Part shown: positions 8,984 to 19,411 of the stretch, piece after piece
Position numbering within the stretch: position 1 is the stretch's first letter
How the letters are laid out: every line of letters starts with the position of its first letter
DNA from: an uncultured Eubacteriales bacterium
Lineage (GTDB): Bacteria > Actinomycetota > Coriobacteriia > Anaerosomatales > CAVRZR01
Direction: 5' to 3'
NCBI GenBank assembly: GCA_964354215.1
Contig: CAYGYT010000001.1
Coordinates: 146,054-210,053 of the forward strand
Length of the DNA: 64,000 nt
The notes under the pieces: generated by a model
Told to the model about the DNA's origin: nothing
Databases searched by the model: none
What the model saw: the letters and a program-made list of their open reading frames with translations, nothing else
Position numbers and translations under genes: made by a program

Positions 8984-9063
8984 GCGCCATCCCTTCCCAC
9001 CTGCGTTTCTTCGGCCGGGCGAGTATACTGTGAGCGTTTTCCCCCGAATCGGCGGACGGCATC

Positions 9064-9702
9064 GTGACTCGTAGACTGCGCCCACTTCTGTTCGAGGACC
9101 TCGACCGCCTCCCCACACTGTGTGGAGGCTGTGTCTTCTGGGAGACCGCCGAGATGCACGAGCGGCGGTGCGGTACGTCCTGCGACCTGACGGTCCTGCG
9201 CTCGTGGTACGAGCGCGTCACGGACGAGTGGGGCGACTGCGGCAGGGTGGCGCTTGACGACGACGGTGAAGTCATGGGCTTCATCAAGTACGCGCCCAGC
9301 GGGTACTTCCCGCAAGCTGCCACGTTCCCTGCCCGTCCCCTCTCCGGGGACACGGTACTGATCGCCTGTCTGCACATCCGAGACGACGCGCGCGGTCAGG
9401 GCCTGGGCCGCCTGCTGGTCCACGCCGCGCTGAAGGACCTGAAGAGCCGCGGTGATCGCTCGGTGCAGTCGTTTGCGAGCGCTGGGCCGTTCGATCCTGC
9501 GGTGATGCCCATGATCGGTATGAAGTACCTGCTCAACCAAGGCTTCTCCGTGGTGCGCCCGGATCCCGCCTTCCCACTCATGCAGCTGGACCTGCGCTCG
9601 CTTGCGATGCTCGCCGAGAATCTCGAAGCGGTGCTCGAGTCGCTTCGCGCCCCACTGCGCGCGCCCTCCCGCGTTCCCGATCCGACGACGCGGGCGAGGT
9701 AG
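9064..9702 (+). CDS. GNAT family N-acetyltransferase
   Basis: The acetyl-CoA binding block is LHIRDDARGQGLGRLLVHAALKDLKSRG. Confidence 0.65.
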   Translation: MTRRLRPLLFEDLDRLPTLCGGCVFWETAEMHERRCGTSCDLTVLRSWYERVTDEWGDCGRVALDDDGEVMGFIKYAPSGYFPQAATFPARPLSGDTVLIACLHIRDDARGQGLGRLLVHAALKDLKSRGDRSVQSFASAGPFDPAVMPMIGMKYLLNQGFSVVRPDPAFPLMQLDLRSLAMLAENLEAVLESLRAPLRAPSRVPDPTTRAR

Positions 9703-9704
9703 CG

Positions 9705-10190
9705 ATGGCTGAGGTGCCGAAGAAGGCCGGCTCTCGCGAGCGGGTCCGCAGTTTCCTCGATGCGCATGGCCTTACGGAGGGCCTCGTCGAGTTCGAGCAG
9801 TCGACGAAGACCGCGCAGATGGCGGCCGACGCCATGGGATGCGAGCTCGGTCAGATCGTGAAGTCGCTCGTGTTCGTCGTCGACGACCGGGTCGTCCTCG
9901 CCTTGGTGGCCGGCGACCGCCGAGGCGACACCAGTGCCATCGCCGCGCTGGTGGGCGGCTCGGATGCCCGATTCGCGGATGCGGACACGGTTCGCTCGGC
10001 GACCGGCTACGCGATCGGCGGGGTGTCTCCGTTCGACCTGCCCCACGACCTGCTCGTGCTCTTTGACGACTCGCTCGAGCGCTTCGAGATCGTCTATCCG
10101 GCGGGAGGAACCCCGTCGTCCATGGTCAGGATGTCCCGTCGGCAGCTCCTCGAGCTGACGCGCGGGCGCGTGGCACGCATCTCGCATTAG
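9705..10190 (+). CDS. YbaK/EbsC-type aminoacyl-tRNA trans-editing deacylase domain protein
   Basis: Blocks seen: IVKSLVFVVDD..VLALV.GD, ATGYAIGGVSPF, and IVYPAGG found in the YbaK/ProX family. Confidence 0.75.
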   Translation: MAEVPKKAGSRERVRSFLDAHGLTEGLVEFEQSTKTAQMAADAMGCELGQIVKSLVFVVDDRVVLALVAGDRRGDTSAIAALVGGSDARFADADTVRSATGYAIGGVSPFDLPHDLLVLFDDSLERFEIVYPAGGTPSSMVRMSRRQLLELTRGRVARISH

Positions 10191-10197
10191 GGGCCGC

Positions 10198-11328
10198 ATG
10201 AGTTCACTGCCCGTACAACCACCCGCTCCCCGGCGCATCCCGCGCTTGTACGTGGCGCTCGTGGCAACGCTCTTCGCGGCTGGTCTGGCTGCCTCTCTCG
10301 GCGCCGGTTCATCGGTGCGTGTCACGGTCGACGGGAAGACCCACCGGTTGGAGTCCGGTACGACGATCGCCGACATCGTTCAGGCCGGCTACGTCGCCGG
10401 GAGGCCCGGAAACATGCTGTCGGCCACGACGCACCGTGTCGTGGCAAGCGGCGGCGCGTCGATCCGCGTGTGGCGTAATGGGCGCCCGGTCACAAGCGAC
10501 CGAATCGTGTACGACGGCGATACGGTCACGAGTGCCGACGGCACGAGCGTGACCGAGATGGTCGTGGAGAAGCGCGTGCCGATTCCCGTGAGCACTCAGG
10601 TCGTAGGGTCAGGCCCGCTCGTCACGCTTGCAGCTCCCGGCGCGGTAGGGGTCCGCCAACTGAGCGTGGGCGCCGTTTCCGGCGACGTCGTAACGAGCAC
10701 GGTACTGGTGAAACCTTCGCCGATGATCGTGAAGCGCTACGGTCGGCAGACTCACGAGAAGGTCGTCGCGCTCACCTTCGATGACGGTCCGTGGCCTGGC
10801 CAGACCGACAAGATCCTGCACATTCTTCGGCAGTACAAGGTCAGGGGCACCTTCTTCATGGTCGGCTACCTCGCGAAGAAGAACCACTCGCTCGCGCACA
10901 AGGTCGCCGCCGAGGGGCATCTCGTGGGCAACCACACCGCGGGTCATCGGATGCTCACGCGATTGAGCGCCGCTTCCGTCGATGACCAGATTGAGCGGGG
11001 AGAACGGATACTCGCTCGGAGCACCGGCGAGACGCCGGCCTGGTTCCGGCCGCCCGGGGGCGATATCTCGCCGGCTGTGTGGGCACGCGTGCGCAAGGCG
11101 CGTCTCAAGGTCGCGCTCTGGAGCGTGGATCCCCAGGACTGGAGAAAGCCGGGCGCGAAGCAGATCGCTCACCGGGTCGCCATCAATACGCGTCCGGGCT
11201 CGATCGTGCTGCTGCACGACGGTGGCGGGAACCGGGCCCAGACGATCCAAGCGCTGCCGGTCATCATCCGCTCCCTGCAGTCGCGCGGCTACCGCTTCGT
11301 GACGCTGGACGAGATGCCGGTTCGCTAG
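10198..11328 (+). CDS. Membrane-anchored polysaccharide deacetylase (NodB homology domain)
   Basis: An N-terminal TM is followed by VALTFDDGPWP..T..IL..L....V.GTFFMVG, GHLVGNHT..H, WFRPPGG and LLHDGGG. Confidence 0.8.
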   Translation: MSSLPVQPPAPRRIPRLYVALVATLFAAGLAASLGAGSSVRVTVDGKTHRLESGTTIADIVQAGYVAGRPGNMLSATTHRVVASGGASIRVWRNGRPVTSDRIVYDGDTVTSADGTSVTEMVVEKRVPIPVSTQVVGSGPLVTLAAPGAVGVRQLSVGAVSGDVVTSTVLVKPSPMIVKRYGRQTHEKVVALTFDDGPWPGQTDKILHILRQYKVRGTFFMVGYLAKKNHSLAHKVAAEGHLVGNHTAGHRMLTRLSAASVDDQIERGERILARSTGETPAWFRPPGGDISPAVWARVRKARLKVALWSVDPQDWRKPGAKQIAHRVAINTRPGSIVLLHDGGGNRAQTIQALPVIIRSLQSRGYRFVTLDEMPVR

Positions 11329-11960
11329 CGGCTCGTTTCCGCCCCAGGTTCGGGCACCTGCGCGCCCACCACGTGGACCACAGTCGACGGCGTCACAACC
11401 AGGTCGACGGGCTGGTCGTGTGGCTCGGTGGGCACCTCGTCGAGGAGCTGTTCGTCGAAGGCCAACCCGATGCGCAGCGGCCCTTCAGGCAGCCGCGCGA
11501 GGAAGCGGTCGTAGAAGCCCCCGCCGTAGCCGAGTCGGTATCCTCGGCGGTCGAATGCCACCCCCGGAACGAGCACGACGTCGATCTCGTTCGCATCAAC
11601 GCGCGGCGATTCCGGCCGCGGTTCGCGAATCGAGTAGGAGCCGAGGACGAGTTCGTCGGGGCTGCCGACCTCGTGCAGATCGAGCACGTTGTCCGATGTG
11701 ACGCGGGGGTAGGCGATCCTCACGCCTCGCTCGCGGAGCCGAGCCACCGCTCGCGCGGGGTCGAGCTCCTCTCGATTGGCGCCGTAGCCGAGCACGAGGC
11801 GCGCATCGGCGAGCTCGGGAAGGCCCGACAGCGCGTTGGCTATGGCGACGGCCGCCGCCTCGCGCGTGTCCTGTGCAATTGCTCGACGACGCGCCCGCGT
11901 CGCCTCCCGGAGCCCGGCCTTCCGTGCCGCGAGTGTCCCCATGCCCCCACTGTTCGCCAC
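11325..11960 (-). CDS. 5-formyltetrahydrofolate cyclo-ligase
   Basis: Blocks seen: IDVVLVPGVAFDRRGYRLGYGGGFYDRFL and the terminal VDLVVTP. Confidence 0.8.
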   Translation of the reverse strand: MANSGGMGTLAARKAGLREATRARRRAIAQDTREAAAVAIANALSGLPELADARLVLGYGANREELDPARAVARLRERGVRIAYPRVTSDNVLDLHEVGSPDELVLGSYSIREPRPESPRVDANEIDVVLVPGVAFDRRGYRLGYGGGFYDRFLARLPEGPLRIGLAFDEQLLDEVPTEPHDQPVDLVVTPSTVVHVVGAQVPEPGAETSR

Positions 11961-11994
11961 GAGCTGTCTCCGAGTTCGCCGTACGTTCTGTTCG

Positions 11995-13263
11995 CTAGCC
12001 CAGGCCCAGCACCGTCATAACGAGCAGCGCGACGGTCAGTCCGATCACTACCAGTATCGTCGTCCAGGATACGAGGTTGTACGCCCGGCCGTTGACGTAC
12101 CTGCCCATTATTCGGCGGTCGTTCACGATTCCCATCATGAAGATGAGCAGGAAGGGCAGGAGAACGCCGTTCACGGCCTGCGAGAGCACCATGATCTGGA
12201 TAAGCGGCGCCTTGGGGATGAGGACGAGCGCCGCGCCGACGAAGATGACGAAGGTGTAGATGCTGTTGAAGATCGGGGCCTCCGACCACGAACGATCGAT
12301 GCCGCGCTCCCAGCCGAACGCCTCGGTGATCGCGTAGGCCGCGGTAAGCGGCAGCACGAATGCGGCGAGCAGCGAGGCGCCGAACAGCCCGATCGCGAAG
12401 AGCGCGCTCGCGTAGCGACCGGCGACCGGCGCCAGTGCCTGTGCCGCCTGTGCGGGGCCGCCAACCCCGCTGATCTCAACTCCGCGAGGGAACAGCACGG
12501 TGCCCGTCGTCACGATGATGAACCAGGCGATCACGTTCGCTGAGATCGCCCCCGAGATCACATCGACGCGCTGGTAGACGAGGTCCTTGGCGGTCACGCC
12601 CTTGTCGACGATGTTGCTCTGCACGAAGAACTGCATCCACGGGGCAATGGTGGTGCCTACGGTTGCGATCACGATGAGCACGAAGCTCGCGCTCGGGATG
12701 AAGGTCGGTACGACGGTGGCGCGCAGAACCACGCTCCAGTCCGGCTTTGCCATGAACGCCGCCACCACGTACGCCAGGAACACGCTCGAGAGAGCGAGCA
12801 GGAGCTTCTCGATGTTGCGGTACGAGCCCCGCACCACGAGCAGCCACACCGCGACGGCAGCGACCGGCACCGAAAGGTACTTGGACACTCCAAAGAGCTC
12901 GAGCGCGGCTGCGATGCCGGCGAATTCGGCGACGGAGGTGGCCGCATTGCTCGTGAGCAGCGCGAGCATCGCGAAGAGCGTCGGCCGTATGCCGTAGCGC
13001 TCGCGGATGAGCGCCGAGAATCCCTTGCCGGTGACCGCTCCCATGCGCGCGGCGGTCTCTTGGACGATGACGAGCGAGAACGTCATCACGAAGATCATCC
13101 AGAGCATCGCGTAGCCGTAGCTCGTGCCGGCGACGGAGTACGTGGAGATGCCACCGGCGTCGTTTCCCGCCGAGGCAGCGATGATACCGGGGCCCATGGC
13201 CGCCAGCACCGCCAGAACGCCTGCCCGGCGAGTGCCGCGCTTGCTATCGGCGACCGCGGGCAA
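11995..13263 (-). CDS. mntH: NRAMP family divalent metal (Mn2+/Fe2+) transporter
   Basis: GPGIIAASAGNDAGGISTYS matches the NRAMP DPGN-type motif region, followed by about 11 TM helices. The track ORF extends to 13407 and overlaps the upstream gene. I place the start at TTG 13263, just after the upstream stop, but the start is uncertain. Confidence 0.75.
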   Translation of the reverse strand: MPAVADSKRGTRRAGVLAVLAAMGPGIIAASAGNDAGGISTYSVAGTSYGYAMLWMIFVMTFSLVIVQETAARMGAVTGKGFSALIRERYGIRPTLFAMLALLTSNAATSVAEFAGIAAALELFGVSKYLSVPVAAVAVWLLVVRGSYRNIEKLLLALSSVFLAYVVAAFMAKPDWSVVLRATVVPTFIPSASFVLIVIATVGTTIAPWMQFFVQSNIVDKGVTAKDLVYQRVDVISGAISANVIAWFIIVTTGTVLFPRGVEISGVGGPAQAAQALAPVAGRYASALFAIGLFGASLLAAFVLPLTAAYAITEAFGWERGIDRSWSEAPIFNSIYTFVIFVGAALVLIPKAPLIQIMVLSQAVNGVLLPFLLIFMMGIVNDRRIMGRYVNGRAYNLVSWTTILVVIGLTVALLVMTVLGLG

Positions 13264-13267
13264 GCGG

Positions 13268-15130
13268 CTAGCTCCACGCGACGAGGAGTACCCCGCCGAC
13301 GAAGGACAATCCCAGGTAGCACACCGTGGCGAAGAGCATCGCCCCGAGCGAGAGCCACGTTGCCGAGACCGGCCGTTCGCCCTCGCTCCGACGGCCCGCG
13401 AGTTCACCGAGGAGCGCGCCCACCAGTACGGTGGCGAGCACGGACAGGCCCGTCACGACCCCGAAGACAGCGGCTGTCTTCTCGGCGCCCCCAGAGGTGA
13501 TTTCGACGAACGCGAAGGCGACAAGCCCGATCGCGAGCGCGATCGCCGTTCCCAGGGCGCTCTCGGCGAGCAGTCGTCGGCCAAAGGAGGGCCGCTCGCC
13601 CTCACTGGTCGGGTCGATGAGTTCGGCGACCGCGCGCGAAGATGCCTCCTCGCCCGTGCGCAGCAGCAGCGGAAGCAGGATGACTGCCATCGACACGAAG
13701 ACCAGCGCGTCGGGCAGCCACGCGGGGGGGACGGCCTGAGCGAACCGTTCCTCGAGCTGCTGCGTTGACAAGGCGAACGCCAGCAGCGCCGCGACCCAGA
13801 TGATCGCCCACCCGCTGCGCCGCACGATCCACCAGCCAAGGTTCGCGACGCGGCCGTACTCGCGCGGCGATCCCGTCGCGATGGCGAGGTCCTCGTCGGC
13901 CTCCTCCTCCAACACGTCGAGCGCGTCGTCGACGGTGACGATGCCGAGGAGCTTGCCGGTCTCGTCGACGACGGGGAGTGCGAGCAGGTCGTACTTGCTC
14001 ATGGTCTCGGCGACGTCTTCCTGGTCCTCGTCGACATCGGCTGTGAACAGGTCGGTCTCGGCGATCTCGGCGACCGTAATGTCCGGCGCAGACATGATGA
14101 GGTCGCGAAGCGAGACGACGCCCGTGAGGTGACAGTCGTCCTCGATGACGTAGATGTAGTAGATCGACTCGTGCTCGGCGGATTCGGCGCGCAGATGGTT
14201 GATGACCTGCTCGACCGTCATGTCCTCGGTCACGGTCGTGACCTCGGGCGTCATGATGCCGCCGGCCGTCTTCTCCTTGTAGCCGAGGAGCGACCGGATC
14301 TGCCGAGACTCCTTCACGCCCATGAGTCGCAGCAGGCGCTCCGCCTTGTCGTAGGGGAGATCGCCCACGATGTCGGCTGCGTCGTCAGGGTCCATCTCCG
14401 CAAGAAGAAGGGATGCCCGGCGCTCCGAGAGGTCGTCGATGACGTCCGCCTGGTACTCGTCCTCGAGTTCGGTGATCGCTTCGGCGGCCTGTTCGTTGTC
14501 GAGGTGCTCGAACACCCTCGCGCGCTGGCTCGGCGACAGCTGCTCGAGGATGTCGGCGACGTCGGCCGGATGGAGCTCGTGGAGGCGCTTGTGCGTGACC
14601 GAGAGCTGGACGTGTGAGAGGTCTCGGTCGAGCAGGTCCATGTAGTTCCACGCGATGATGTTCTCGGGAAGCTTCCCGCCGAAGAGGCGCGTGATCCGAA
14701 CGCCGAGGCGCTCGATTGCGGGGGAGATGCCGCGCAGGATGCCGCGGAAGCCCACGTCGGCGCCCAACAGGCGCAGCTGGTTGCGAGACTCGGAGAGCTT
14801 GAGGTCGTTCACGCGAACGACCTTCATACCTTGCGTGTCCACGATCTGCTTGCTCATCAGGTCGCGCGCGAGCAGGACTTCGTCGGGCTGCAGGTAGGAG
14901 AAGCGAAGCTGCGACTGCTCGGCGTTCAGTCGCACCTGTTCGTCGTCGAACTCCATGACGTACTTGCGCCATGACAGCATGAACGGCGTCTTGTCCGGTC
15001 CGACGAACGCCAGCGACGTGACGCGCGGAAAGATCTCGCCCGTCGCGATGGCGACGTCGTTGATCGTGCCGATCTCGGCGCCTGCGGCATCGACCACCGG
15101 CTTCCCGAGCATGCGGGACAGGTAGATCAT
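13268..15130 (-). CDS. MgtE-related protein: 2x PRC-barrel + MgtE_N + CBS pair + non-canonical 5-TM C-terminus
   Basis: The MgtE N-domain block is HPADVADILEQLSP..R..VFE.L....AAEAI..L. A CBS pair follows (IMTPEV..V; LLALPVVDETGKLLGIVTVDD). The C-terminal TM region lacks the canonical MgtE GGNAG.Q and DPA motifs. Confidence 0.7.
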   Translation of the reverse strand: MIYLSRMLGKPVVDAAGAEIGTINDVAIATGEIFPRVTSLAFVGPDKTPFMLSWRKYVMEFDDEQVRLNAEQSQLRFSYLQPDEVLLARDLMSKQIVDTQGMKVVRVNDLKLSESRNQLRLLGADVGFRGILRGISPAIERLGVRITRLFGGKLPENIIAWNYMDLLDRDLSHVQLSVTHKRLHELHPADVADILEQLSPSQRARVFEHLDNEQAAEAITELEDEYQADVIDDLSERRASLLLAEMDPDDAADIVGDLPYDKAERLLRLMGVKESRQIRSLLGYKEKTAGGIMTPEVTTVTEDMTVEQVINHLRAESAEHESIYYIYVIEDDCHLTGVVSLRDLIMSAPDITVAEIAETDLFTADVDEDQEDVAETMSKYDLLALPVVDETGKLLGIVTVDDALDVLEEEADEDLAIATGSPREYGRVANLGWWIVRRSGWAIIWVAALLAFALSTQQLEERFAQAVPPAWLPDALVFVSMAVILLPLLLRTGEEASSRAVAELIDPTSEGERPSFGRRLLAESALGTAIALAIGLVAFAFVEITSGGAEKTAAVFGVVTGLSVLATVLVGALLGELAGRRSEGERPVSATWLSLGAMLFATVCYLGLSFVGGVLLVAWS

Positions 15131-15325
15131 AGGTGCTCCCTCCCTCCGGTGGCGCCGGGTCGGTCTCTCGCCGCCGCGTGGGTCGCGACGTCGCGCTCGG
15201 CCGGCCCGCGCTGGGGTTCCGTCGGGTCTGGCAGGGGTCCCGCCCCCTGCCCGTGACTCGGGAGGAAGCGGGACCTACGGACTTGGAGGTCTCACGCAGG
15301 TCCTTCTCGCTCGGCAACAGGTCCG

Positions 15326-15368
15326 ACAACACGAAACGACCCCTGCGTCCGGGTGTGGACGAGGGGTC
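15326..15368 (-). terminator. Intrinsic terminator-like hairpin in the M-box expression platform
   Basis: The minus strand reads GACCCCUCGUCC-ACACCC-GGACGCAGGGGUC followed by GUUUCGUGUUGU. Confidence 0.45.
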
Positions 15369-15480
15369 GGCATGCGGTCGCGCGCCGGGGCGTTCCTCGG
15401 CTCGGCCACGTGAAGCCCGACCGCGCCGGTGGTGCTTGGCGCGCCCGGACCGCTCCCTCCCTCGTCGCAAGGATTTGGCA

Positions 15481-15662
15481 CTGTCCGACGTAGGACGCGC
15501 GCGCGGGTTCGCGCGACGCAGTGGGATTGCCCACCCCATGATCCAGCCACCTTAGCCTTCGCCTTAAGCCGGCGAGGGCTGTTCTACCCATTGGCGTCTC
15601 TCGACATTTCCGGGCAGTGGCCTGTGTTCGAACAGGAGCCGCACCGTAACGGACGGAGCGCT
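15481..15662 (-). promoter_or_regulatory. M-box (ykoK leader) Mg2+ riboswitch aptamer
   Basis: The minus strand reads CCGUUACGGUGCGGCUCCUGU ... CUGCCCGGAAAUGUCGAGAGACGCCAAUGGGUAGAACAG ... CUUAAGG ... GGCUGGAU ... CCUACGUCGGAC. This parallels the B. subtilis mgtE leader blocks GUUAGGUGAGGCUCCUGU, CUGCCCAAAAAUGUCCAAAGACGCUAAUGGGUCAACAG, UAAGG, GCUGGAU and CUACG. The closing P1 helix is GUCCG/CGGAC. Confidence 0.8.
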
Positions 15663-15801
15663 TCTGTGGTGTCAACGCTCGCCAGACGCGGCGAGCACAG
15701 GAATCGTACACCCGCGTTTGTGGACGGCGCAACCAAATGCGCTGCTCGGACGCGCCGCCGAGCACGTGCGCAGTGTACACAAGCCGTCCGCGCGTGCTCT
15801 G

Positions 15802-16770
15802 CTACAACCCGCGCGCTTCCAGCCACAAGCGGGCGAATTCCGCCCACCCGTGCCCCTGGCGCGCGCGGGTGACGTACGCGTTGGGCGTGGCTGCCACGCC
15901 CACAGCGAGTGCCGGTGAGTCGAGCCCGTTCGCCACGAGGGCGAACAGGCCCACCGAATCGGCCATCTCCAAGTCGCTCGCAGAGTCGCCGATCGCCGCA
16001 GCCTGCCCGGGTCGCAGGCCCCGCGCCGCGAGGTCCTCGGCAAGTGCGCGCGCCTTTGACGCACCCTTGGGCACCAAGTGGTACGCGTGGATCTGCTCGA
16101 CGCCTGTCAGGCCGTGCCGAGGCGGGTGGATGATCCCGTTGTCGACGAACCCGATCGGCAGCGCGAGCGAGTCGAGCACGGCTTGCGCCGCGTCCACGTC
16201 AACCTCGCCGCGCAGGATGTGCGTTGCGAGCCGGTCGCGGTCCCACGGGAAATGACGCTCGATACGACCGGGGAACGCGGTCTGCAGGGCGTCGAGGGCG
16301 CCCGCCTGCTCGATCGCCTCGTACGGCGTGAGGTGCTCGGGTACGAGGTCGGGCGGCCAGTCACCGGTGCTGTAGGTCATGGTGCGCTCGCGGCCGACGG
16401 ATCGGATGCAGCCGACCTCGCCGATGAAATCGGTCCAGCCCAGAAGCCGCGTGTTCTCGGCGAGCTGAATGGCGTTGCGTCCCGAGACCATGACCACGGT
16501 CAGGGCCGCCCGGTTCACCGCAACCACGGCCTCGACCGTCTCGAGCGTGGGTTCGCCGCGGTCGTCCGTGAGCACGCTGGCGCCCCGGCCAAGCAGCGTC
16601 CCGTCGAGGTCGGTGTAGAGGATCTCTATGCCCGCGAGGGCTTCGAGCGCCTCCGGCGATTCGGCGAGAAGGCGCGGCGCGCTGGGGCCTGGGCTATCAC
16701 TGTTCATGGAACCGATGATAGCGCGGAGGGCGGGTGCGCCGGACAACGCACTCAGATTCGTGCGCCGCAC
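15802..16770 (-). CDS. HAD-IIB (Cof-type) family hydrolase
   Basis: Blocks seen: ILYTDLDGTLLG (motif I), VMVSGR (motif II), AAIGDSASDLEMA (motif IV). An alternative start is the ATG at 16707. Confidence 0.7.
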   Translation of the reverse strand: MRRTNLSALSGAPALRAIIGSMNSDSPGPSAPRLLAESPEALEALAGIEILYTDLDGTLLGRGASVLTDDRGEPTLETVEAVVAVNRAALTVVMVSGRNAIQLAENTRLLGWTDFIGEVGCIRSVGRERTMTYSTGDWPPDLVPEHLTPYEAIEQAGALDALQTAFPGRIERHFPWDRDRLATHILRGEVDVDAAQAVLDSLALPIGFVDNGIIHPPRHGLTGVEQIHAYHLVPKGASKARALAEDLAARGLRPGQAAAIGDSASDLEMADSVGLFALVANGLDSPALAVGVAATPNAYVTRARQGHGWAEFARLWLEARGL

Positions 16771-16862
16771 TGCGCGACACGGTATAAGGATAGAATCGGC
16801 GACGGTGCCTCAAGCCTGGCAAGGTACCGGCCTGCCCCGCGACCCTCACAACTCGAGCTGGA

Positions 16863-17477
16863 GTGACGATGCGCGACCCGTTCGAAATGCCCTTCCCTCA
16901 GTACCGCTGCCCGACGTGCGGCAAAGACCTGCCGCTGAACGAGGCGCGCATGATGGTGACGTGTGCCGAGCACCAGAGGAACGAGCCGATCGCGTTCTCA
17001 GTCCGCGAGGCCAAGCCGGCCGACAAGCACGACATCGAGGAGATCTGCGACCGAGCACTCGGAGAGACCGACGTCGACGTCTTCGGCAAGACGTTCGATG
17101 TGCTCTCCGGTCTGAACCTCGTAGCGCAGGCCGACGGTGCGTTTGCCGGCCTGCTCGCGTGCGCCGTCGAGGGCGGCAGCCTCGCAATCGTGCTCCTCTC
17201 GGTCTACCCGGACTTCCAGGGCCAAGGCGTGGGGAATGCGCTCCTGGATGCGGCCGACACGCTTGCTGCCGCGAGGCGGCTCCCATTCCTTCGCGCGGCC
17301 GCGAGCAACGACGACATCCCGCAGCTCTACTTCTATCAGCGCCACGGCTTCGCTATCGACGAGATAGCCGTGGGGGCGGTCGCCGACCAGCTCGGCTCGG
17401 TGGTCGCCGGGTTCTCGGGCATCCCCGTGCGAGACGAGATCCGCCTTCGGCGGGCCGTCTGTGCGAAGGAGAGCTGA
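16863..17477 (+). CDS. GNAT family N-acetyltransferase with N-terminal Cys-pair (zinc-ribbon-like) segment
   Basis: CPTCG...TCAEH is followed by VYPDFQGQGVGNALLDAA and YFYQRHGF. Confidence 0.7.
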   Translation: MTMRDPFEMPFPQYRCPTCGKDLPLNEARMMVTCAEHQRNEPIAFSVREAKPADKHDIEEICDRALGETDVDVFGKTFDVLSGLNLVAQADGAFAGLLACAVEGGSLAIVLLSVYPDFQGQGVGNALLDAADTLAAARRLPFLRAAASNDDIPQLYFYQRHGFAIDEIAVGAVADQLGSVVAGFSGIPVRDEIRLRRAVCAKES

Positions 17478-17524
17478 CCGCACGATCGCGCGGCACACAC
17501 GCCGACACGTCTCAAGGAGGCTTC

Positions 17525-18565
17525 ATGCGTCGCCAGACCAACGGCATCGCCCGTCTGCTGCTCGTAGTGGCACTTGGTGCCGCGCTCTCGGCCGTCGGCT
17601 GTGCCGAGCAGGCAGCAACGCCTGAGCCGGACAAGCTCGCGCCTGCCGCAGACCCCATCCCGGTCAAGATCGGCACACTTCCTACGGAGGACTCGCTCCC
17701 GTTGTGGGTCGCCGAGCAGGAAGGTCTCTTCACGGCTGCCGGCCTGCCGAGCGTCGAGATCGTGGTGTTCCAGTCGGCGCAGGAGCGCGACGCAGCGCTC
17801 GCGGCGCGCGCGATCGACGGCTTCATGGGCGACATCATCGCTGCGGCCAATCTCGAGGCCGGTGGAACGCCCGTGACGATCGCGACGATCATGCTCGGTG
17901 CGACTCAGGCGCAGGGCCGGTTCGGGATCGTCGCTCCCAAGAGCTGGACCGACGGTACCGGCGCCGATGCGCTCGCGCGGCTCGCGAACGTGCCGGTCGG
18001 CACCTCTTCGGCGACCATCCAGGAGTACGTGCTCGATGGCCTCATGCGTCAAGCCGGTGTGTCGAGTGACCAGGTCAAGGTAGAAGAGGTCAAGAAGGTG
18101 CCCGTCCGCTTCGAGCTCCTCATGCAGGGCAAGCTCAAGGCGGCGGCACTCCCCGAGCCGTTCCTCTCGCTCGCCGTACTCCAGGGCGCCAAGCTCCTCG
18201 CCGACGACACTACCGCTACGCCCGCCGGATTCGGGAACGAGAACCTGTCGCAAACGATCCTGCTGTTCTCGGATACGTTCCTCTCCAAGACGGGCGGCGT
18301 CGAGTCCGAAGTAGCGATCAAGGAAGCGTGGGATGAGGCGGTCGCGCTCATCAACAAGGACCCGAACGCGTACCGCGCGCTGCTCGTCGAGAAGGCGCGG
18401 CTTCCCGAGCCGCTCAAGGATTCCTACCAGGTCAACACCTACCCGACGGCGCAACTGCCCACGGAGGCGCAGGTGCAGGCGGTGACGGACTGGATGAAGC
18501 AGCGCGGCTACCTGAAGCAGGACGTCACCTACACGGACCTCACGGTCGTCATGCCCGCGAAGTAG
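17525..18565 (+). CDS. ABC transporter substrate-binding lipoprotein (NitT/TauT, NMT1-like family)
   Basis: The lipoprotein signal is LLLVVALGAALSAVGC, and the fold pattern is NMT1/SsuA-like. The track ORF extends 5' to 16628, but that part is Arg/Pro-rich and non-coding-like. Confidence 0.75.
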   Translation: MRRQTNGIARLLLVVALGAALSAVGCAEQAATPEPDKLAPAADPIPVKIGTLPTEDSLPLWVAEQEGLFTAAGLPSVEIVVFQSAQERDAALAARAIDGFMGDIIAAANLEAGGTPVTIATIMLGATQAQGRFGIVAPKSWTDGTGADALARLANVPVGTSSATIQEYVLDGLMRQAGVSSDQVKVEEVKKVPVRFELLMQGKLKAAALPEPFLSLAVLQGAKLLADDTTATPAGFGNENLSQTILLFSDTFLSKTGGVESEVAIKEAWDEAVALINKDPNAYRALLVEKARLPEPLKDSYQVNTYPTAQLPTEAQVQAVTDWMKQRGYLKQDVTYTDLTVVMPAK

Positions 18566-18571
18566 GCGGAT

Positions 18572-19411
18572 TTGCGCCGGCTGCCCATGGCTTCACTCAC
18601 CCTCGAGTCGCTCGGAGTCACGTACGCGGGTACGGATCGCGAGGTCGAAGCGCTCTCGGATGTCACGCTGTCGCTCGCCCAGGGCGAGCCGGTCGCCGTC
18701 ATCGGTCCGTCGGGCTGCGGGAAGACCACCTTGCTGCTCGCCGCCGCGGGATTGCTCGCGCCCACGGCCGGCCGAGTCCTTGTCGGGGGAGCACCGCTCT
18801 CGGGTGTGCGGCGCACGACCGCGCTCATCCTCCAGGACTTCGGTCTGTTCCCTTGGAAGAACGTGTTTCACAATGCTGGGCTCGGACTCGAGATTCGAGG
18901 GCACGGGCGCTCTGAGCTGCGCGAGCGCGTCATGGCGGCGCTCGACCAGGTGGGGCTCGCCGAGTTTGAGCGAGCGTACCCGGGCGAGCTTTCCGGCGGC
19001 ATGCGACAACGGCTCGCTCTTGCCCGCGCGCTCGCACTCGAAGCCGACCTGCTGCTCATGGACGAGCCGCTCTCGGCGCTCGACGCGCTCACACGCGAGG
19101 ACCTGCAGGACGTACTGCTGGCGCTCTGGCAGAAGCGAGGGCATACGTGCGTTCTCGTGACGCATTCGATCGAGGAGGCGGTGTACCTCGGCCGCCGAGT
19201 GGTCGTGCTCACTCCACGCCCCGGGCGCATCGCCGCGATCGTGGACAACCCCATGATGGGCGAGTCCGGGTATCGCGAAAGCCGCGAGTTCTACGAGCGG
19301 GCCGTCGAGCTCAGACGGCTGCTTGCCGAGGAGGGTGCCGTGCACGCGGGCGTCGGCCCGAGATCCGGTCCCGGGGGCTCTCCGGACCGCGAACCAGGTC
19401 CGCGCTCATGA
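18572..19411 (+). CDS. ABC transporter ATP-binding protein (NitT/TauT family)
   Basis: Walker A is GPSGCGKTT, the signature is LSGGMRQRLALARAL, and Walker B is LLLMDEPLSALD. Confidence 0.85.
   Translation: MRRLPMASLTLESLGVTYAGTDREVEALSDVTLSLAQGEPVAVIGPSGCGKTTLLLAAAGLLAPTAGRVLVGGAPLSGVRRTTALILQDFGLFPWKNVFHNAGLGLEIRGHGRSELRERVMAALDQVGLAEFERAYPGELSGGMRQRLALARALALEADLLLMDEPLSALDALTREDLQDVLLALWQKRGHTCVLVTHSIEEAVYLGRRVVVLTPRPGRIAAIVDNPMMGESGYRESREFYERAVELRRLLAEEGAVHAGVGPRSGPGGSPDREPGPRS

What the first reader, a model, noticed from the sequence alone, without database searches (positions are those of the whole stretch)
11995..15662. M-box riboswitch controlling a non-canonical MgtE-like protein plus an NRAMP transporter
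A well-conserved M-box aptamer (15481..15662, minus strand) is followed by a terminator-like hairpin (15326..15368) and an unusually long remaining leader of about 190 nt before the start at 15130. The regulated gene has two PRC-barrel modules, the MgtE cytoplasmic N-domain and a CBS pair. Its membrane part lacks the MgtE pore signatures (GGNAG.Q / DPA) and looks like a different 5-TM domain. It abuts an NRAMP gene with essentially no spacer. This suggests either a Mg2+-sensing regulator of the NRAMP transporter or a novel channel, rather than a standard MgtE.
Basis: partly seen in the sequence, partly recalled or inferred. Interest (0 to 1): 0.55.

Follow-up and report, generated by a model that had tools for sequence, protein, structure and literature searches.

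The report
Magnesium riboswitch, pore-dead MgtE, NRMT importer
A magnesium-sensing riboswitch switches off a two-gene operon for a known type of magnesium importer and its partner protein, a former magnesium channel that kept its magnesium sensor but lost its pore; this kind of operon was published in 2014, and only this membrane-embedded form of the partner and a second control element in the leader appear to be new.

Summary
A full-length M-box (RF00380, 122.5 bits) lies at 15452-15660 (-). It is followed by a conserved intrinsic terminator and a ~195-nt leader. The operon is a 620-aa PRC/MgtE_N/CBS/5-TM gene (13268-15130) and an NRAMP-family gene (11995-13263) that starts 5 nt after its stop.

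The interpretation needs three corrections.
1. The NRAMP gene is an NRMT, the Mg2+-transporting SLC11 branch. It is 61.5% identical to EleNRMT (PDB 7QIA) and keeps all the binding-site residues checked.
2. The C-terminal domain is a diverged MgtE transmembrane domain, not a different fold (profile E 1.5e-5 to MgtE TM crystal chains; hhalign 90%). The pore is dead: Asp432 is replaced by Met598 and the TM2 GGNxGNQ motif is lost. All eight cytosolic Mg2+-ligand residues are kept.
3. M-box/mgtE-like/nrmT operons, and the idea that the partner gives feedback regulation, were published by Shin et al. 2014.

Three things appear to be new. The partner comes in three anchoring classes: a 5-TM relic, a single TM helix, or a polybasic tail. 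The relic TM domain evolves very fast (28% vs 71% identity). The long leader carries a conserved element with a hairpin or 6-codon mini-ORF and an anti-SD. Interest is moderate: a new variant of a known kind.

The parts
15703..15732 (-). Candidate promoter: TTGCGC, 18-nt spacer, TACGAT. It would place the transcription start about 35 nt upstream of the aptamer.
   Evidence: Read directly from the sequence. It does not pass the sigma-70 consensus scan. Weak and untested.
15452..15660 (-). M-box (Mg2+) riboswitch aptamer.
   Evidence: RF00380, 122.5 bits against gathering score 44, E 9.6e-28, full model 1-169. The same element sits at the same place in 22 related loci.
15459..15466 (-). 3' strand of helix P1 (GACGAGGG). 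It can pair either with the 5' strand of P1 or with the 5' strand of the terminator, which would form the anti-terminator.
   Evidence: Folding the nascent transcript without the 3' half of the terminator pairs this strand with CCCUCGUC. The 8-bp duplex recurs in most of the 22 related M-box leaders. It covaries in L085 and L106 (GACCAGGG with CCCUGGUC).
15326..15369 (-). Intrinsic terminator: 13-bp GC-rich stem with one bulge, 6-nt loop and a U-rich tail.
   Evidence: RNAfold gives -25 kcal/mol. Conserved in the alignments.
15264..15330 (-). Conserved post-terminator leader element. It includes a hairpin (GGACCUGC 15303-15296 pairing with GUAGGUCC 15278-15271) with invariant GUGA..CC....AGU in its loop.
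   Evidence: nhmmer E 7e-18. It occurs once in the window and in 23 related leaders, including L005, which has no M-box. No Rfam match at E <= 1. Support for the hairpin is modest: 78.7% of cells paired, 13 of 500 shuffles as good, pair 34-65 AU8/GC8/GU4.
15275..15295 (-). Possible 6-codon mini-ORF, GTG AGA CCT CCA AGT CCG TAG (M-R-P-P-S-P-stop).
   Evidence: In all 23 leaders GTG is followed by an in-frame TAG after 6-9 codons. Two independent 3-nt insertions keep the frame. The peptide pattern is M-x-P-x-S-[PT]. It is not shown to be translated. The invariant AGT and TAG could equally reflect constraint at the RNA level.
15260..15269 (-). Anti-Shine-Dalgarno sequence GCUUCCUCCC.
   Evidence: In the MFE fold of the leader it pairs with the SD of the MgtE-like gene. 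The duplex is -22 kcal/mol, z -2.5 against shuffles. 13 of 23 leaders have z < -1.5.
15136..15147 (-). Shine-Dalgarno sequence GGAGGGAGGGAG of the MgtE-like gene.
   Evidence: Read from the sequence. Conserved in relatives. Predicted unpaired probability <= 0.1 in most leaders.
13268..15130 (-). Gene for the pore-dead MgtE-like NRMT partner protein (620 aa): PRC1, a weak PRC2-like module, MgtE_N, a CBS pair, a plug helix and a relic 5-TM MgtE domain.
13886..14575 (-). Cytosolic Mg2+-sensor module (MgtE_N aa 186-286 and CBS pair aa 291-415). It keeps the ligand residues E217, D249, D253, D381, D402, D405, E413 and D414.
   Evidence: Mapped from the phmmer alignment to T. thermophilus MgtE onto the Mg2-Mg7 site residues listed in PMC5882242.
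13271..13852 (-). Plug helix and relic MgtE transmembrane domain (aa 427-620). Met598 stands at the Asp432 position, and RTGEEASSR stands at the GTGGNTGNQ position.
   Evidence: Mean pairwise identity is 28%, against 71% for the cytosolic part.
11995..13263 (-). NRMT gene (NRAMP-related Mg2+ transporter), 422 aa from TTG 13263.
   Evidence: phmmer against PDB 7qia (EleNRMT): 499.5 bits, E 7.5e-149. BLASTP identity 61.5% over 403 aa. Equivalents of Asp55, Gly58, Glu133, Thr224, Ala227 and Gln379 are all present.

Best explanation
This is an M-box-controlled Mg2+-uptake operon of the type Shin et al. described in 2014, from an environmental Coriobacteriia (Anaerosomatales-like) genome.

Step 1, shown by sequence and covariation: at high cytosolic Mg2+ the M-box aptamer compacts and locks the P1 3' strand GACGAGGG. 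The GC-rich terminator at 15369-15326 then forms and transcription stops. At low Mg2+ that strand pairs with the terminator's 5' strand and RNA polymerase reads through.

Step 2, inferred: the read-through leader holds the Shine-Dalgarno sequence of the first gene in a long-range helix with an anti-SD. The anti-SD lies just after a conserved hairpin or 6-codon mini-ORF. This gives a second, translational checkpoint.

Step 3, by strong homology: the second gene encodes an NRMT, an SLC11 transporter that imports Mg2+. It is translationally coupled to the first gene (5-nt spacer).

Step 4, inferred: the first gene encodes a former MgtE channel that has become a sensor subunit. It keeps the residues of all the cytosolic Mg2+ sites of MgtE but has lost the pore aspartate and the TM2 glycine/asparagine motif, so it most likely does not conduct Mg2+. 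Its relic TM domain most likely serves as a membrane anchor that holds the sensor next to NRMT. The sensor would throttle NRMT when cytosolic Mg2+ is sufficient. The N-terminal PRC-barrel region, the most conserved part of the protein, is the best candidate for the contact with NRMT.
For: Riboswitch and switch mechanism:
- Full-length M-box.
- Terminator and anti-terminator conserved, with covariation.

NRMT identity:
- 499 bits to EleNRMT, 61.5% identity, binding-site residues intact.
- Mg2+ transport by EleNRMT and by C. acetobutylicum NrmT was shown experimentally (PMC8806188, PMC4072509).

The partner is MgtE-derived:
- TIGR00400 235 bits.
- phmmer to 2yvx over residues 180-582.
- TM-domain profile hits MgtE TM chains at E 1.5e-5; hhalign 89.9%.
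- Foldseek aligns the model to full-length MgtE.

The pore is dead:
- Two independent alignments put Met598 at Asp432.
- D432A and D432N are inactive in T. thermophilus MgtE (PMC4241985).
- No polar residue in the TM domain is conserved across 25 diverse members.
- The TM domain shows 28% mean identity against 71% for the cytosolic part, for example 35% against 92% for window vs L082. NG86 omega is 0.08 to about 1 for the TM part and 0.03-0.35 for the cytosolic part.

The sensor is intact:
- All eight Mg2-Mg7 ligand residues are kept and are mostly invariant in 53 homologs.

Tight, reciprocal linkage to NRMT:
- Nearly all of the 78 NRMT loci with enough upstream sequence have a PRC/MgtE_N/CBS gene on the same strand upstream of NRMT, in most of them immediately upstream; the only such loci without one are L066 and L076.
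- All metagenome loci found through the partner that extend more than ~270 nt past its gene (about 20) carry NRMT directly downstream. The two canonical MgtE loci, L115 and L116, do not.

The membrane part is dispensable:
- Orthologous partners have one TM helix or none.

NRMT works without the partner:
- This was shown in proteoliposomes and by complementation. It fits a regulatory role for the partner, not a catalytic one.
Against: - No experiment links the partner to NRMT activity.
- In the only test published, co-expression of the A. capsulatum partner did not change rescue by its NrmT. That assay, however, would not reveal an inhibitor acting at high Mg2+.
- The TM domain diverges much faster than NRMT (47% against 83% for window vs L081). 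This argues against an extensive TM-TM interface.
- The ATP-stacking residue Phe227 of MgtE is Leu in the whole family, so regulation may differ from that of MgtE.
- The A. capsulatum NrmT relative mainly carried Mn2+, so the substrate here is inferred, not shown.
- The second PRC barrel is weakly supported and modelled at low confidence.
- The translational checkpoint rests on predicted pairing in about 13 of 23 leaders.
Confidence: 0.6

Rival explanations
1. The 620-aa protein is still an ion channel or transporter. It would be a divergent MgtE with a re-invented pore, working in parallel with NRMT or conducting another ion.
For: - It passes the NCBIfam mgtE equivalog cut-off (235 against 232.75 bits) and is annotated 'magnesium transporter' in public records.
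- The five TM helices are kept without frameshifts in more than 100 homologs and are modelled at pLDDT 84-96.
- A clade-specific charged motif, LLPLLLRTxEExSSRAxAELIE, is conserved at the end of TM2.
- The plug-helix ligands E413 and D414 are invariant only in the 5-TM class. This hints that the TM domain still communicates with the sensor.
Against: - The Asp432 equivalent is Met or another hydrophobic residue in every member. D432A/N abolish MgtE activity.
- The GGNxGNQ motif is lost.
- Only A3, W26, W30 and P72 of the TM alignment are (nearly) invariant.
- The TM part evolves close to neutrally in many pairs.
- Orthologs in other lineages lack the TM domain altogether yet keep the same linkage to NRMT.
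- A TM-only phmmer search of 1.84 billion representatives finds only 31 hits, mostly short sequences that look like fragments of the same family, and none the size of a full-length MgtE.
Confidence: 0.08
2. The partner does not gate NRMT. It acts as a cytosolic Mg2+ (or Mn2+) buffer or chaperone that receives the ion from NRMT, or as an assembly or stability factor.
For: - Shin et al. raised chaperone activity as an alternative.
- The Mg2+ ligands are conserved.
- The partner is also found next to NrmT relatives without an M-box, one of which carried Mn2+.
Against: - NRMT folds and transports on its own in E. coli, B. subtilis and liposomes.
- Mg2+ is millimolar in the cytosol, so a stoichiometric chaperone makes little sense.
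- In MgtE these same sites act as a gating sensor.
Confidence: 0.15
3. The relic TM domain, and perhaps the whole first gene in this clade, is decaying. It would be a non-functional remnant kept only for translational coupling to NRMT.
For: - TM identity is 28%, and omega approaches 1 in distant pairs.
- Other lineages have already lost the domain.
Against: - The cytosolic part is under strong purifying selection (omega 0.03-0.35; 92% identity in the pair window vs L082; many invariant columns).
- The closest pairs still show TM omega of 0.08-0.4.
- Hydrophobic helices and an intact reading frame are maintained in all members.
Confidence: 0.05

Closest known systems
M-box-regulated mgtE-like/nrmT operons (Shin et al. 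2014, PLoS Genet, PMC4072509; e.g. Clostridium acetobutylicum Ca_c0685)
   Same: An M-box with a terminator upstream, a gene homologous to the MgtE cytoplasmic domain, then an Nramp-related Mg2+ transporter. The authors already speculated that the MgtE-like protein gives cytoplasmic feedback regulation.
   Different: [quoted passage not shown] Here it is 620 aa, with a PRC-barrel N-terminus and a retained, pore-dead 5-TM MgtE domain. The leader also carries an extra conserved element after the terminator.
EleNRMT, Eggerthella lenta NRAMP-related Mg2+ transporter (PDB 7QIA/7QIC/7QJI/7QJJ; Ramanadane et al. 2022, PMC8806188)
   Same: 61.5% identity over 403 aa. Equivalents of Asp55, Gly58, Glu133, Thr224, Ala227 and Gln379 are present. 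The alpha6b histidines of canonical NRAMPs are replaced (Trp, and Val in place of Asn).
   Different: The Eggerthellaceae loci sampled have no M-box, and their partner has a single C-terminal TM helix instead of five. The paper does not discuss the neighbouring gene.
Thermus thermophilus MgtE Mg2+ channel (PDB 2YVX, 2ZY9, 5X9H, 4U9L)
   Same: Same order of N domain, CBS pair, plug helix and 5 TM helices. All cytosolic Mg2+-site ligands (E59, D91, D95, D226, D247, D250, E258, D259) are conserved. Pro321 and Leu324 of TM2 are kept.
   Different: - Asp432 is replaced by Met598.
- GTGGNTGNQ is replaced by RTGEEASSR.
- The loop motif GVDPA is replaced by SEGERP.
- The ATP-stacking residue Phe227 is replaced by Leu.
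- About 175 extra N-terminal residues with PRC-barrel similarity.
- Always encoded next to NRMT.
Bacillus subtilis ykoK (mgtE) M-box riboswitch
   Same: The same aptamer family and the same logic of a terminator competing with an anti-terminator, built on the 3' strand of P1.
   Different: It has a 44-nt insertion in a variable loop, about 84 nt between the aptamer and the terminator, and a further ~195-nt structured leader.
Leader peptides in Mg2+-transporter leaders (Salmonella mgtL and mgtP, from my own knowledge; M. tuberculosis pe20 M-box uORF, PMC12810186)
   Same: A short, Pro-containing ORF lies between a Mg2+-sensing RNA and the transporter genes. A possible link between its translation and the accessibility of downstream signals exists here too.
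   Different: Here the candidate ORF has only 6-9 codons, lies after an intrinsic terminator and is not shown to be translated. The Mtb switch works through a translational platform and Rho.

Membership tests
M-box riboswitch (Rfam RF00380) | Covariance-model score above the curated gathering score, over the full aptamer | tested here: met
   122.5 bits against 44, model positions 1-169 of 169.
M-box riboswitch (Rfam RF00380) | Expression platform in which the P1 3' strand can pair with a downstream terminator strand instead | tested here: met
   GACGAGGG pairs with CCCUCGUC. The terminator is conserved in 22 relatives.
M-box riboswitch (Rfam RF00380) | Mg2+-dependent compaction and termination | not testable with these tools
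   Needs in-line probing or transcription assays.
MgtE Mg2+ channel (TIGR00400 / Pfam MgtE_N + CBS + MgtE) | MgtE N domain and CBS pair with the cytosolic Mg2+ ligands | tested here: met
   PF03448 E 2e-28 and PF00571 E 2e-22. All eight ligand residues are kept.
MgtE Mg2+ channel (TIGR00400 / Pfam MgtE_N + CBS + MgtE) | Homologous 5-helix transmembrane domain | tested here: met
   Profile E 1.5e-5 to 4u9n/4u9l/8h5e. hhalign 89.9%. Foldseek full-length alignment. The single sequence scores only 16.9 bits on PF01769, below the gathering score of 27.6.
MgtE Mg2+ channel (TIGR00400 / Pfam MgtE_N + CBS + MgtE) | Selectivity-filter aspartate in TM5 (Asp432 of T. thermophilus MgtE), essential for conduction | tested here: not met
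   Met598 stands at that column in both alignments. It is invariant Met in 53 homologs and hydrophobic (one Ser) in 25 diverse members. D432A/N are inactive.
MgtE Mg2+ channel (TIGR00400 / Pfam MgtE_N + CBS + MgtE) | Gly/Asn-rich TM2 motif (PxxLGTGGNxGNQ) | tested here: not met
   PLLLRTGEEASSR in the window, LLIADNSVSF in the termite-gut clade.
NRMT (NRAMP-related Mg2+ transporters, SLC11) | Closest to characterised NRMTs rather than to canonical NRAMP/MntH | tested here: met
   499.5 bits to EleNRMT against at most 109.5 bits to any other SLC11/NRAMP chain in the PDB.
NRMT (NRAMP-related Mg2+ transporters, SLC11) | Binding-site signature: Asp and Gly on helix 1 (DxGG in place of DPGN), Thr and Ala on helix 6 (in place of Ala and Met), Gln on helix 10, and loss of the helix-6b histidines | tested here: met
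   NDAGG, GTTIAPW and SQAVNG are all present (alignment; residues defined).
NRMT (NRAMP-related Mg2+ transporters, SLC11) | Mg2+ transport | not testable with these tools
   Inferred from homology and from M-box control. One relative without an M-box carried mainly Mn2+.
NrmT-associated MgtE-like ancillary protein (Shin et al. 2014) | Encoded immediately upstream of nrmT and homologous to the MgtE cytoplasmic domain | tested here: met
   5-nt spacer in the window. Nearly all NRMT loci with enough flanking sequence, and all partner loci that extend past the gene, show the pairing.
NrmT-associated MgtE-like ancillary protein (Shin et al. 2014) | A small protein limited to the cytoplasmic domain | tested here: not met
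   620 aa with a 5-TM domain. Short forms of 413-470 aa occur in other lineages.
PRC-barrel domain (PF05239) | Two PRC-barrel modules at the N-terminus | tested here: inconclusive
   PRC1 scores 27.7 bits, above the gathering score. PRC2 scores 16.1 bits, E 0.011. AlphaFold pLDDT is below 50 for residues 79-126 and 157-181.

The most novel reading that the evidence does not exclude
The leader combines two sensors in series. The first is the M-box, which acts on transcription. The second would be a previously undescribed attenuator: a conserved hairpin holding a 6-9-codon Pro-containing mini-ORF (M-x-P-x-S-[PT]) whose stop codon lies 8-20 nt before an anti-SD that masks the ribosome-binding site of the operon. 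Ribosome occupancy or stalling on the mini-ORF would then unmask translation. This would be an actinobacterial counterpart of the Salmonella mgtL logic. Together with it, the pore-dead, membrane-anchored MgtE would be the first channel-derived regulatory subunit shown for an SLC11 transporter.
Probability: 0.25. Interest if true: 0.65.

Novelty: new variant of a known kind. Interest (0 to 1): 0.4.

Why it matters
- The function of the MgtE-like gene next to nrmT has been open since 2014. This locus gives a clear, testable picture: the cytosolic Mg2+-sensor residues are intact, the pore is demonstrably lost, and the membrane part is reduced stepwise across lineages (5 TM helices, 1 TM helix, polybasic tail). 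This is how a channel could become a regulatory subunit of an unrelated transporter.
- It exposes a systematic annotation error. These proteins pass the mgtE equivalog threshold and are named 'magnesium transporter'.
- A cultured relative, Anaerosoma tenue (WP_267194499.1), makes experiments feasible.
- The conserved post-terminator element may be a new cis-regulatory module in Mg2+ homeostasis.

Tried and rejected
- The simple terminator and promoter scan found nothing. The terminator has a bulge and an interrupted U-tract, so I confirmed it by folding and conservation instead.
- A TM-only phmmer search against 1.84 billion representatives gave 31 hits, mostly short sequences that look like fragments of the family, and none the size of a full-length MgtE. 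Single-sequence search therefore could not show homology. Profiles could.
- RNAalifold predicted no consensus structure for the post-terminator element. My hand-drawn hairpin got only modest support.
- I considered the element as a second promoter and rejected it: there is no -10-like hexamer at a workable spacing.
- I considered the mini-ORF as an in-frame N-terminal extension or read-through of the main gene and rejected it. It is in frame in only about half of the 23 leaders, by my count.
- Hattori 2009 (PMC2782099) is not held. I took the residue roles from PMC4241985, PMC5882242 and PMC5529423 instead.
- My first estimate of about 70% identity to EleNRMT was wrong. BLASTP gives 61.5%.
The essential Asp432 lies in the TM5 motif SDVTG.

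Full report
**Observation**

cmscan places a complete M-box aptamer at window 15452-15660 on the minus strand. It scores 122.5 bits against a gathering score of 44 (E 9.6e-28) and covers model positions 1-169, with a 44-nt insertion in one variable loop. No other Rfam family matches 9000-19000 at E <= 1.

A GC-rich hairpin lies downstream. Its stem is 15369-15357 pairing with 15350-15337, with one bulge and a 6-nt loop. It is followed by UUUCGUGUUGU (15336-15326). The consensus scanner missed it. RNAfold finds it, and it is conserved in 22 related leaders, most with a cleaner UUUUUCGU tail.

When the nascent RNA is folded without the 3' half of the terminator, the P1 3' strand GACGAGGG (15466-15459) pairs with the terminator's 5' strand CCCUCGUC. 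The same 8-bp duplex recurs in most relatives. It covaries in L085 and L106, where GACCAGGG faces CCCUGGUC. This is the classical M-box OFF switch.

**The two genes**

ORF 13268-15130 (-) encodes 620 aa. Pfam finds PRC (46.4 bits over two stretches), MgtE_N (residues 186-286) and two CBS domains. The MgtE TM model scores only 16.9 bits against a gathering score of 27.6. NCBIfam TIGR00400 (mgtE) scores 235 bits, just above its 232.75 cut-off. Scanned alone, PRC1 is significant (27.7 bits) but the second module is not (16.1 bits, E 0.011).

The second gene is an SLC11 protein (Pfam Nramp, 305 bits). Its best match among solved structures is EleNRMT (7qia), at 499.5 bits and E 7.5e-149. No other SLC11/NRAMP chain in the PDB scores above 109.5 bits. 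BLASTP identity to EleNRMT is 61.5% over 403 aa.

The residues that define the Mg2+-transporting NRMT branch are all present: Asp55, Gly58, Glu133, Thr224, Ala227 and Gln379, together with replaced helix-6b histidines (alignment; residues defined in PMC8806188).

The likely start of the NRMT gene is TTG 13263. GGAG lies 8 nt upstream, and the start is 5 nt after the TAG stop of the first gene. The two genes are therefore probably translationally coupled.

**Is the membrane domain MgtE or something else?**

A phmmer search with the TM part alone against 1.84 billion representatives found 31 hits. Most are short sequences that look like fragments of the same family, and none is the size of a full-length MgtE. 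Profile methods do show homology:
- 21 of 53 close homologs hit PF01769 at E <= 0.01, the best at 1.2e-7.
- A profile of 25 diverse TM domains (A3) hits only the MgtE TM-domain crystal chains 4u9n, 4u9l and 8h5e (E 1.5e-5), colinear over all five helices.
- hhalign against a canonical MgtE TM domain taken from locus L116 gives 89.9% probability, E 1.7e-6, over 162 columns.
- The AlphaFold model has a plug helix and five TM helices at pLDDT 84-96. Foldseek aligns it to full-length MgtE over 441-455 columns at E 5e-24. Cytosolic-only entries align over about 250 columns at E 2e-17.

The domain is therefore a diverged MgtE TM domain, not a different fold.

The pore is nevertheless gone. Takeda et al. 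(PMC4241985) identify Asp432 in TM5 as the sole conserved acidic pore residue, and D432A and D432N are inactive. Both alignments place Met598 at that column. Met598 is invariant in 53 close homologs. The position is hydrophobic, with one Ser, in the 25 diverse ones.

The TM2 motif GTGGNTGNQ is RTGEEASSR here and IADNSVSF in a termite-gut clade. Only Pro321 and Leu324 survive.

**The sensor is intact**

I mapped the phmmer alignment to T. thermophilus MgtE onto the Mg2+-site residues tested by Maruyama et al. (PMC5882242). E59, D91, D95, D226, D247, D250, E258 and D259 correspond to E217, D249, D253, D381, D402, D405, E413 and D414. All are conserved in the window protein. Six of the eight are invariant in the 53 close homologs; E217 and D405 vary.

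Of the ATP-site residues (PMC5529423), Tyr170, Arg187 and Asp188 are kept. Asn203 is Glu, and the stacking residue Phe227 is Leu throughout the family.

**Evolutionary pattern**

Across 30 full-length members, the cytosolic part averages 71% pairwise identity and the TM part 28%. Window vs L082, for example, is 92% against 35%. A crude Nei-Gojobori estimate gives omega of 0.03-0.35 for the cytosolic part. For the TM part it is 0.08-0.4 in the closest pairs and drifts to about 1 in distant ones. The membrane part is thus kept hydrophobic and in frame but is otherwise barely constrained.

**Context in other genomes**

A scan of GTDB species genomes with the NRMT returned 80 loci from Coriobacteriia, Geobacter relatives, Acidobacteriota, Nitrospirota, Chloroflexota, Margulisbacteria and others. 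Using domain HMMs built from the family, I found a PRC/MgtE_N/CBS gene upstream of NRMT on the same strand in nearly all of the 78 loci with enough flanking sequence. In most it lies immediately upstream. Only L066 and L076 lack one.

In the reverse direction, I fetched metagenome loci through the partner protein. All of those that extend more than ~270 nt past its gene, about 20 loci, have NRMT directly downstream. The two canonical MgtE loci picked up by the same scan (L115, L116) do not.

The partner occurs in three anchoring classes:
- **Class A:** about 600-660 aa with the relic 5-TM domain. It is found in environmental and termite-gut Coriobacteriia, including this window.
- **Class B:** about 445-470 aa with a single C-terminal hydrophobic helix. 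It is found in Eggerthellaceae-type gut Coriobacteriia, the family of Eggerthella lenta.
- **Class C:** about 413-425 aa with a short polybasic tail. It is found in Geobacter, Acidobacteriota, Nitrospirota and others.

D249 and D402 (the Mg4 site) are invariant across all classes. The plug-helix ligands E413 and D414 are invariant only in class A.

M-boxes accompany the environmental class A loci and the Geobacter-type loci. They are absent from the termite-gut class A, class B, Acidobacteriota and Nitrospirota loci sampled.

**Literature**

Shin et al. 2014 (PMC4072509) discovered NrmT through M-boxes upstream of Nramp-related genes. They noted that most group members have an adjacent gene homologous to the MgtE N-terminal cytoplasmic domain. 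They speculated on feedback regulation or chaperone activity, and they saw no effect of co-expression in one Mn2+-preferring case.

Ramanadane et al. 2022 solved EleNRMT and showed Mg2+ and Mn2+ transport without mentioning the neighbouring gene. Three further searches found no later functional work on the partner. Public records name these proteins 'magnesium transporter (MgtE)', for example WP_267194499.1 of the cultured Anaerosoma tenue.

**The long leader**

An alignment of nine, then 23, leaders shows a second conserved block after the terminator, at window 15330-15264. It occurs once in the window. It is present in every class A leader that has an M-box. It is also present in L005, which has lost the M-box, and weakly in two class B loci.

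The block contains a hairpin (15303-15296 pairing with 15278-15271) with modest covariation: pair 34-65 is AU8/GC8/GU4, 78.7% of cells are paired, and 13 of 500 shuffles do as well. RNAalifold predicts nothing for it.

Its loop and 3' strand can also be read as a mini-ORF, GTG-AGA-CCT-CCA-AGT-CCG-TAG (15295-15275). In all 23 leaders GTG is followed by an in-frame TAG after 6-9 codons, two independent 3-nt insertions keep the frame, and the peptides follow M-x-P-x-S-[PT].

Eight to twenty nucleotides after the stop codon lies a CUCCC-type anti-SD (15269-15260). In the MFE fold it pairs with the SD GGAGGGAGGGAG (15147-15136) of the first gene. This pairing beats shuffled controls in 13 of 23 leaders, with a mean z of -1.7.

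I read this as a probable translational checkpoint. Whether the mini-ORF is translated remains open.

**Verdict**

The regulator reading is favoured and was anticipated in the literature. The 'different 5-TM domain' and 'novel channel' readings are not supported.

The locus is a new variant of a known system. Its value lies in three things: the pore-dead but sensor-intact MgtE relic, the series of anchoring classes, and the unexplained leader element.

Flanking genes are a 5-formyltetrahydrofolate cyclo-ligase (11325-11960, -) and a HAD-type hydrolase (15802-16770, -).

Noticed in passing
window 15264-15330 (-); also L001-L007, L009, L010, L081-L088, L103, L106, L107, L109, L112: A conserved ~65-nt element lies between the M-box terminator and the start codon. 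It has a hairpin with invariant GUGA..CC....AGU, which can also be read as a 6-9-codon mini-ORF (M-x-P-x-S-[PT]-stop). An anti-SD follows that pairs with the operon's SD. It has no Rfam match.
   Followed up: partly
L005:2877-2954: This class A locus has no M-box (neither Rfam at gathering score nor nhmmer) but keeps the post-terminator element. Its mini-ORF stop is mutated (TAG to CAG) and the ORF runs three codons further to the next in-frame TAG. The element therefore seems to act independently of the riboswitch.
   Followed up: partly
L011-L033, L038, L041, L044, L045, L047, L058, L069 (gene upstream of NRMT): The NRMT partner in Eggerthellaceae-type genomes ends in one strongly hydrophobic helix with a conserved LYTL motif, so it looks tail-anchored. 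In Geobacter, Acidobacteriota and Nitrospirota it ends in a polybasic tail (LPKDWRQRLPRLFG or KRKRR). As far as I found, neither feature is mentioned in the literature.
   Followed up: partly
window 13268-15130 (-): The protein passes the NCBIfam TIGR00400 'mgtE' equivalog cut-off by 2 bits, and its homologs are publicly named 'magnesium transporter (MgtE)' although the essential pore aspartate is missing. This is probably a systematic mis-annotation.
   Followed up: yes
window 14615-14905 (-), residues 76-172: This is the most conserved stretch of the whole protein (Q95, D98, G101, R106, N108, D109 and W161 are invariant across all three classes). It is also the part AlphaFold models worst (pLDDT < 50), and it matches PRC only weakly. 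It is a candidate NRMT-contact surface of unknown fold.
   Followed up: partly
L090-L102, L105, L108, L111 (termite-gut metagenomes): A divergent class A clade has no M-box, and its TM domain has a long variable insertion between TM3 and TM4 and a different TM2 motif (LLIADNSVSF).
   Followed up: no
L006:3063-5614: The partner ORF ends at 531 aa, and traces of TM-domain similarity appear in other frames before NRMT. This is probably a frameshift or an assembly error in that MAG.
   Followed up: no
window 11941-11997 (-): Only about 35-55 nt without an obvious terminator separate the NRMT stop codon from a 5-formyltetrahydrofolate cyclo-ligase gene on the same strand. It may be co-transcribed. 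I did not check whether this neighbour is conserved.
   Followed up: no
window 15703-15732 (-): Candidate promoter: TTGCGC, 18-nt spacer, TACGAT, about 35 nt upstream of the aptamer. It does not meet the sigma-70 scan criteria.
   Followed up: no
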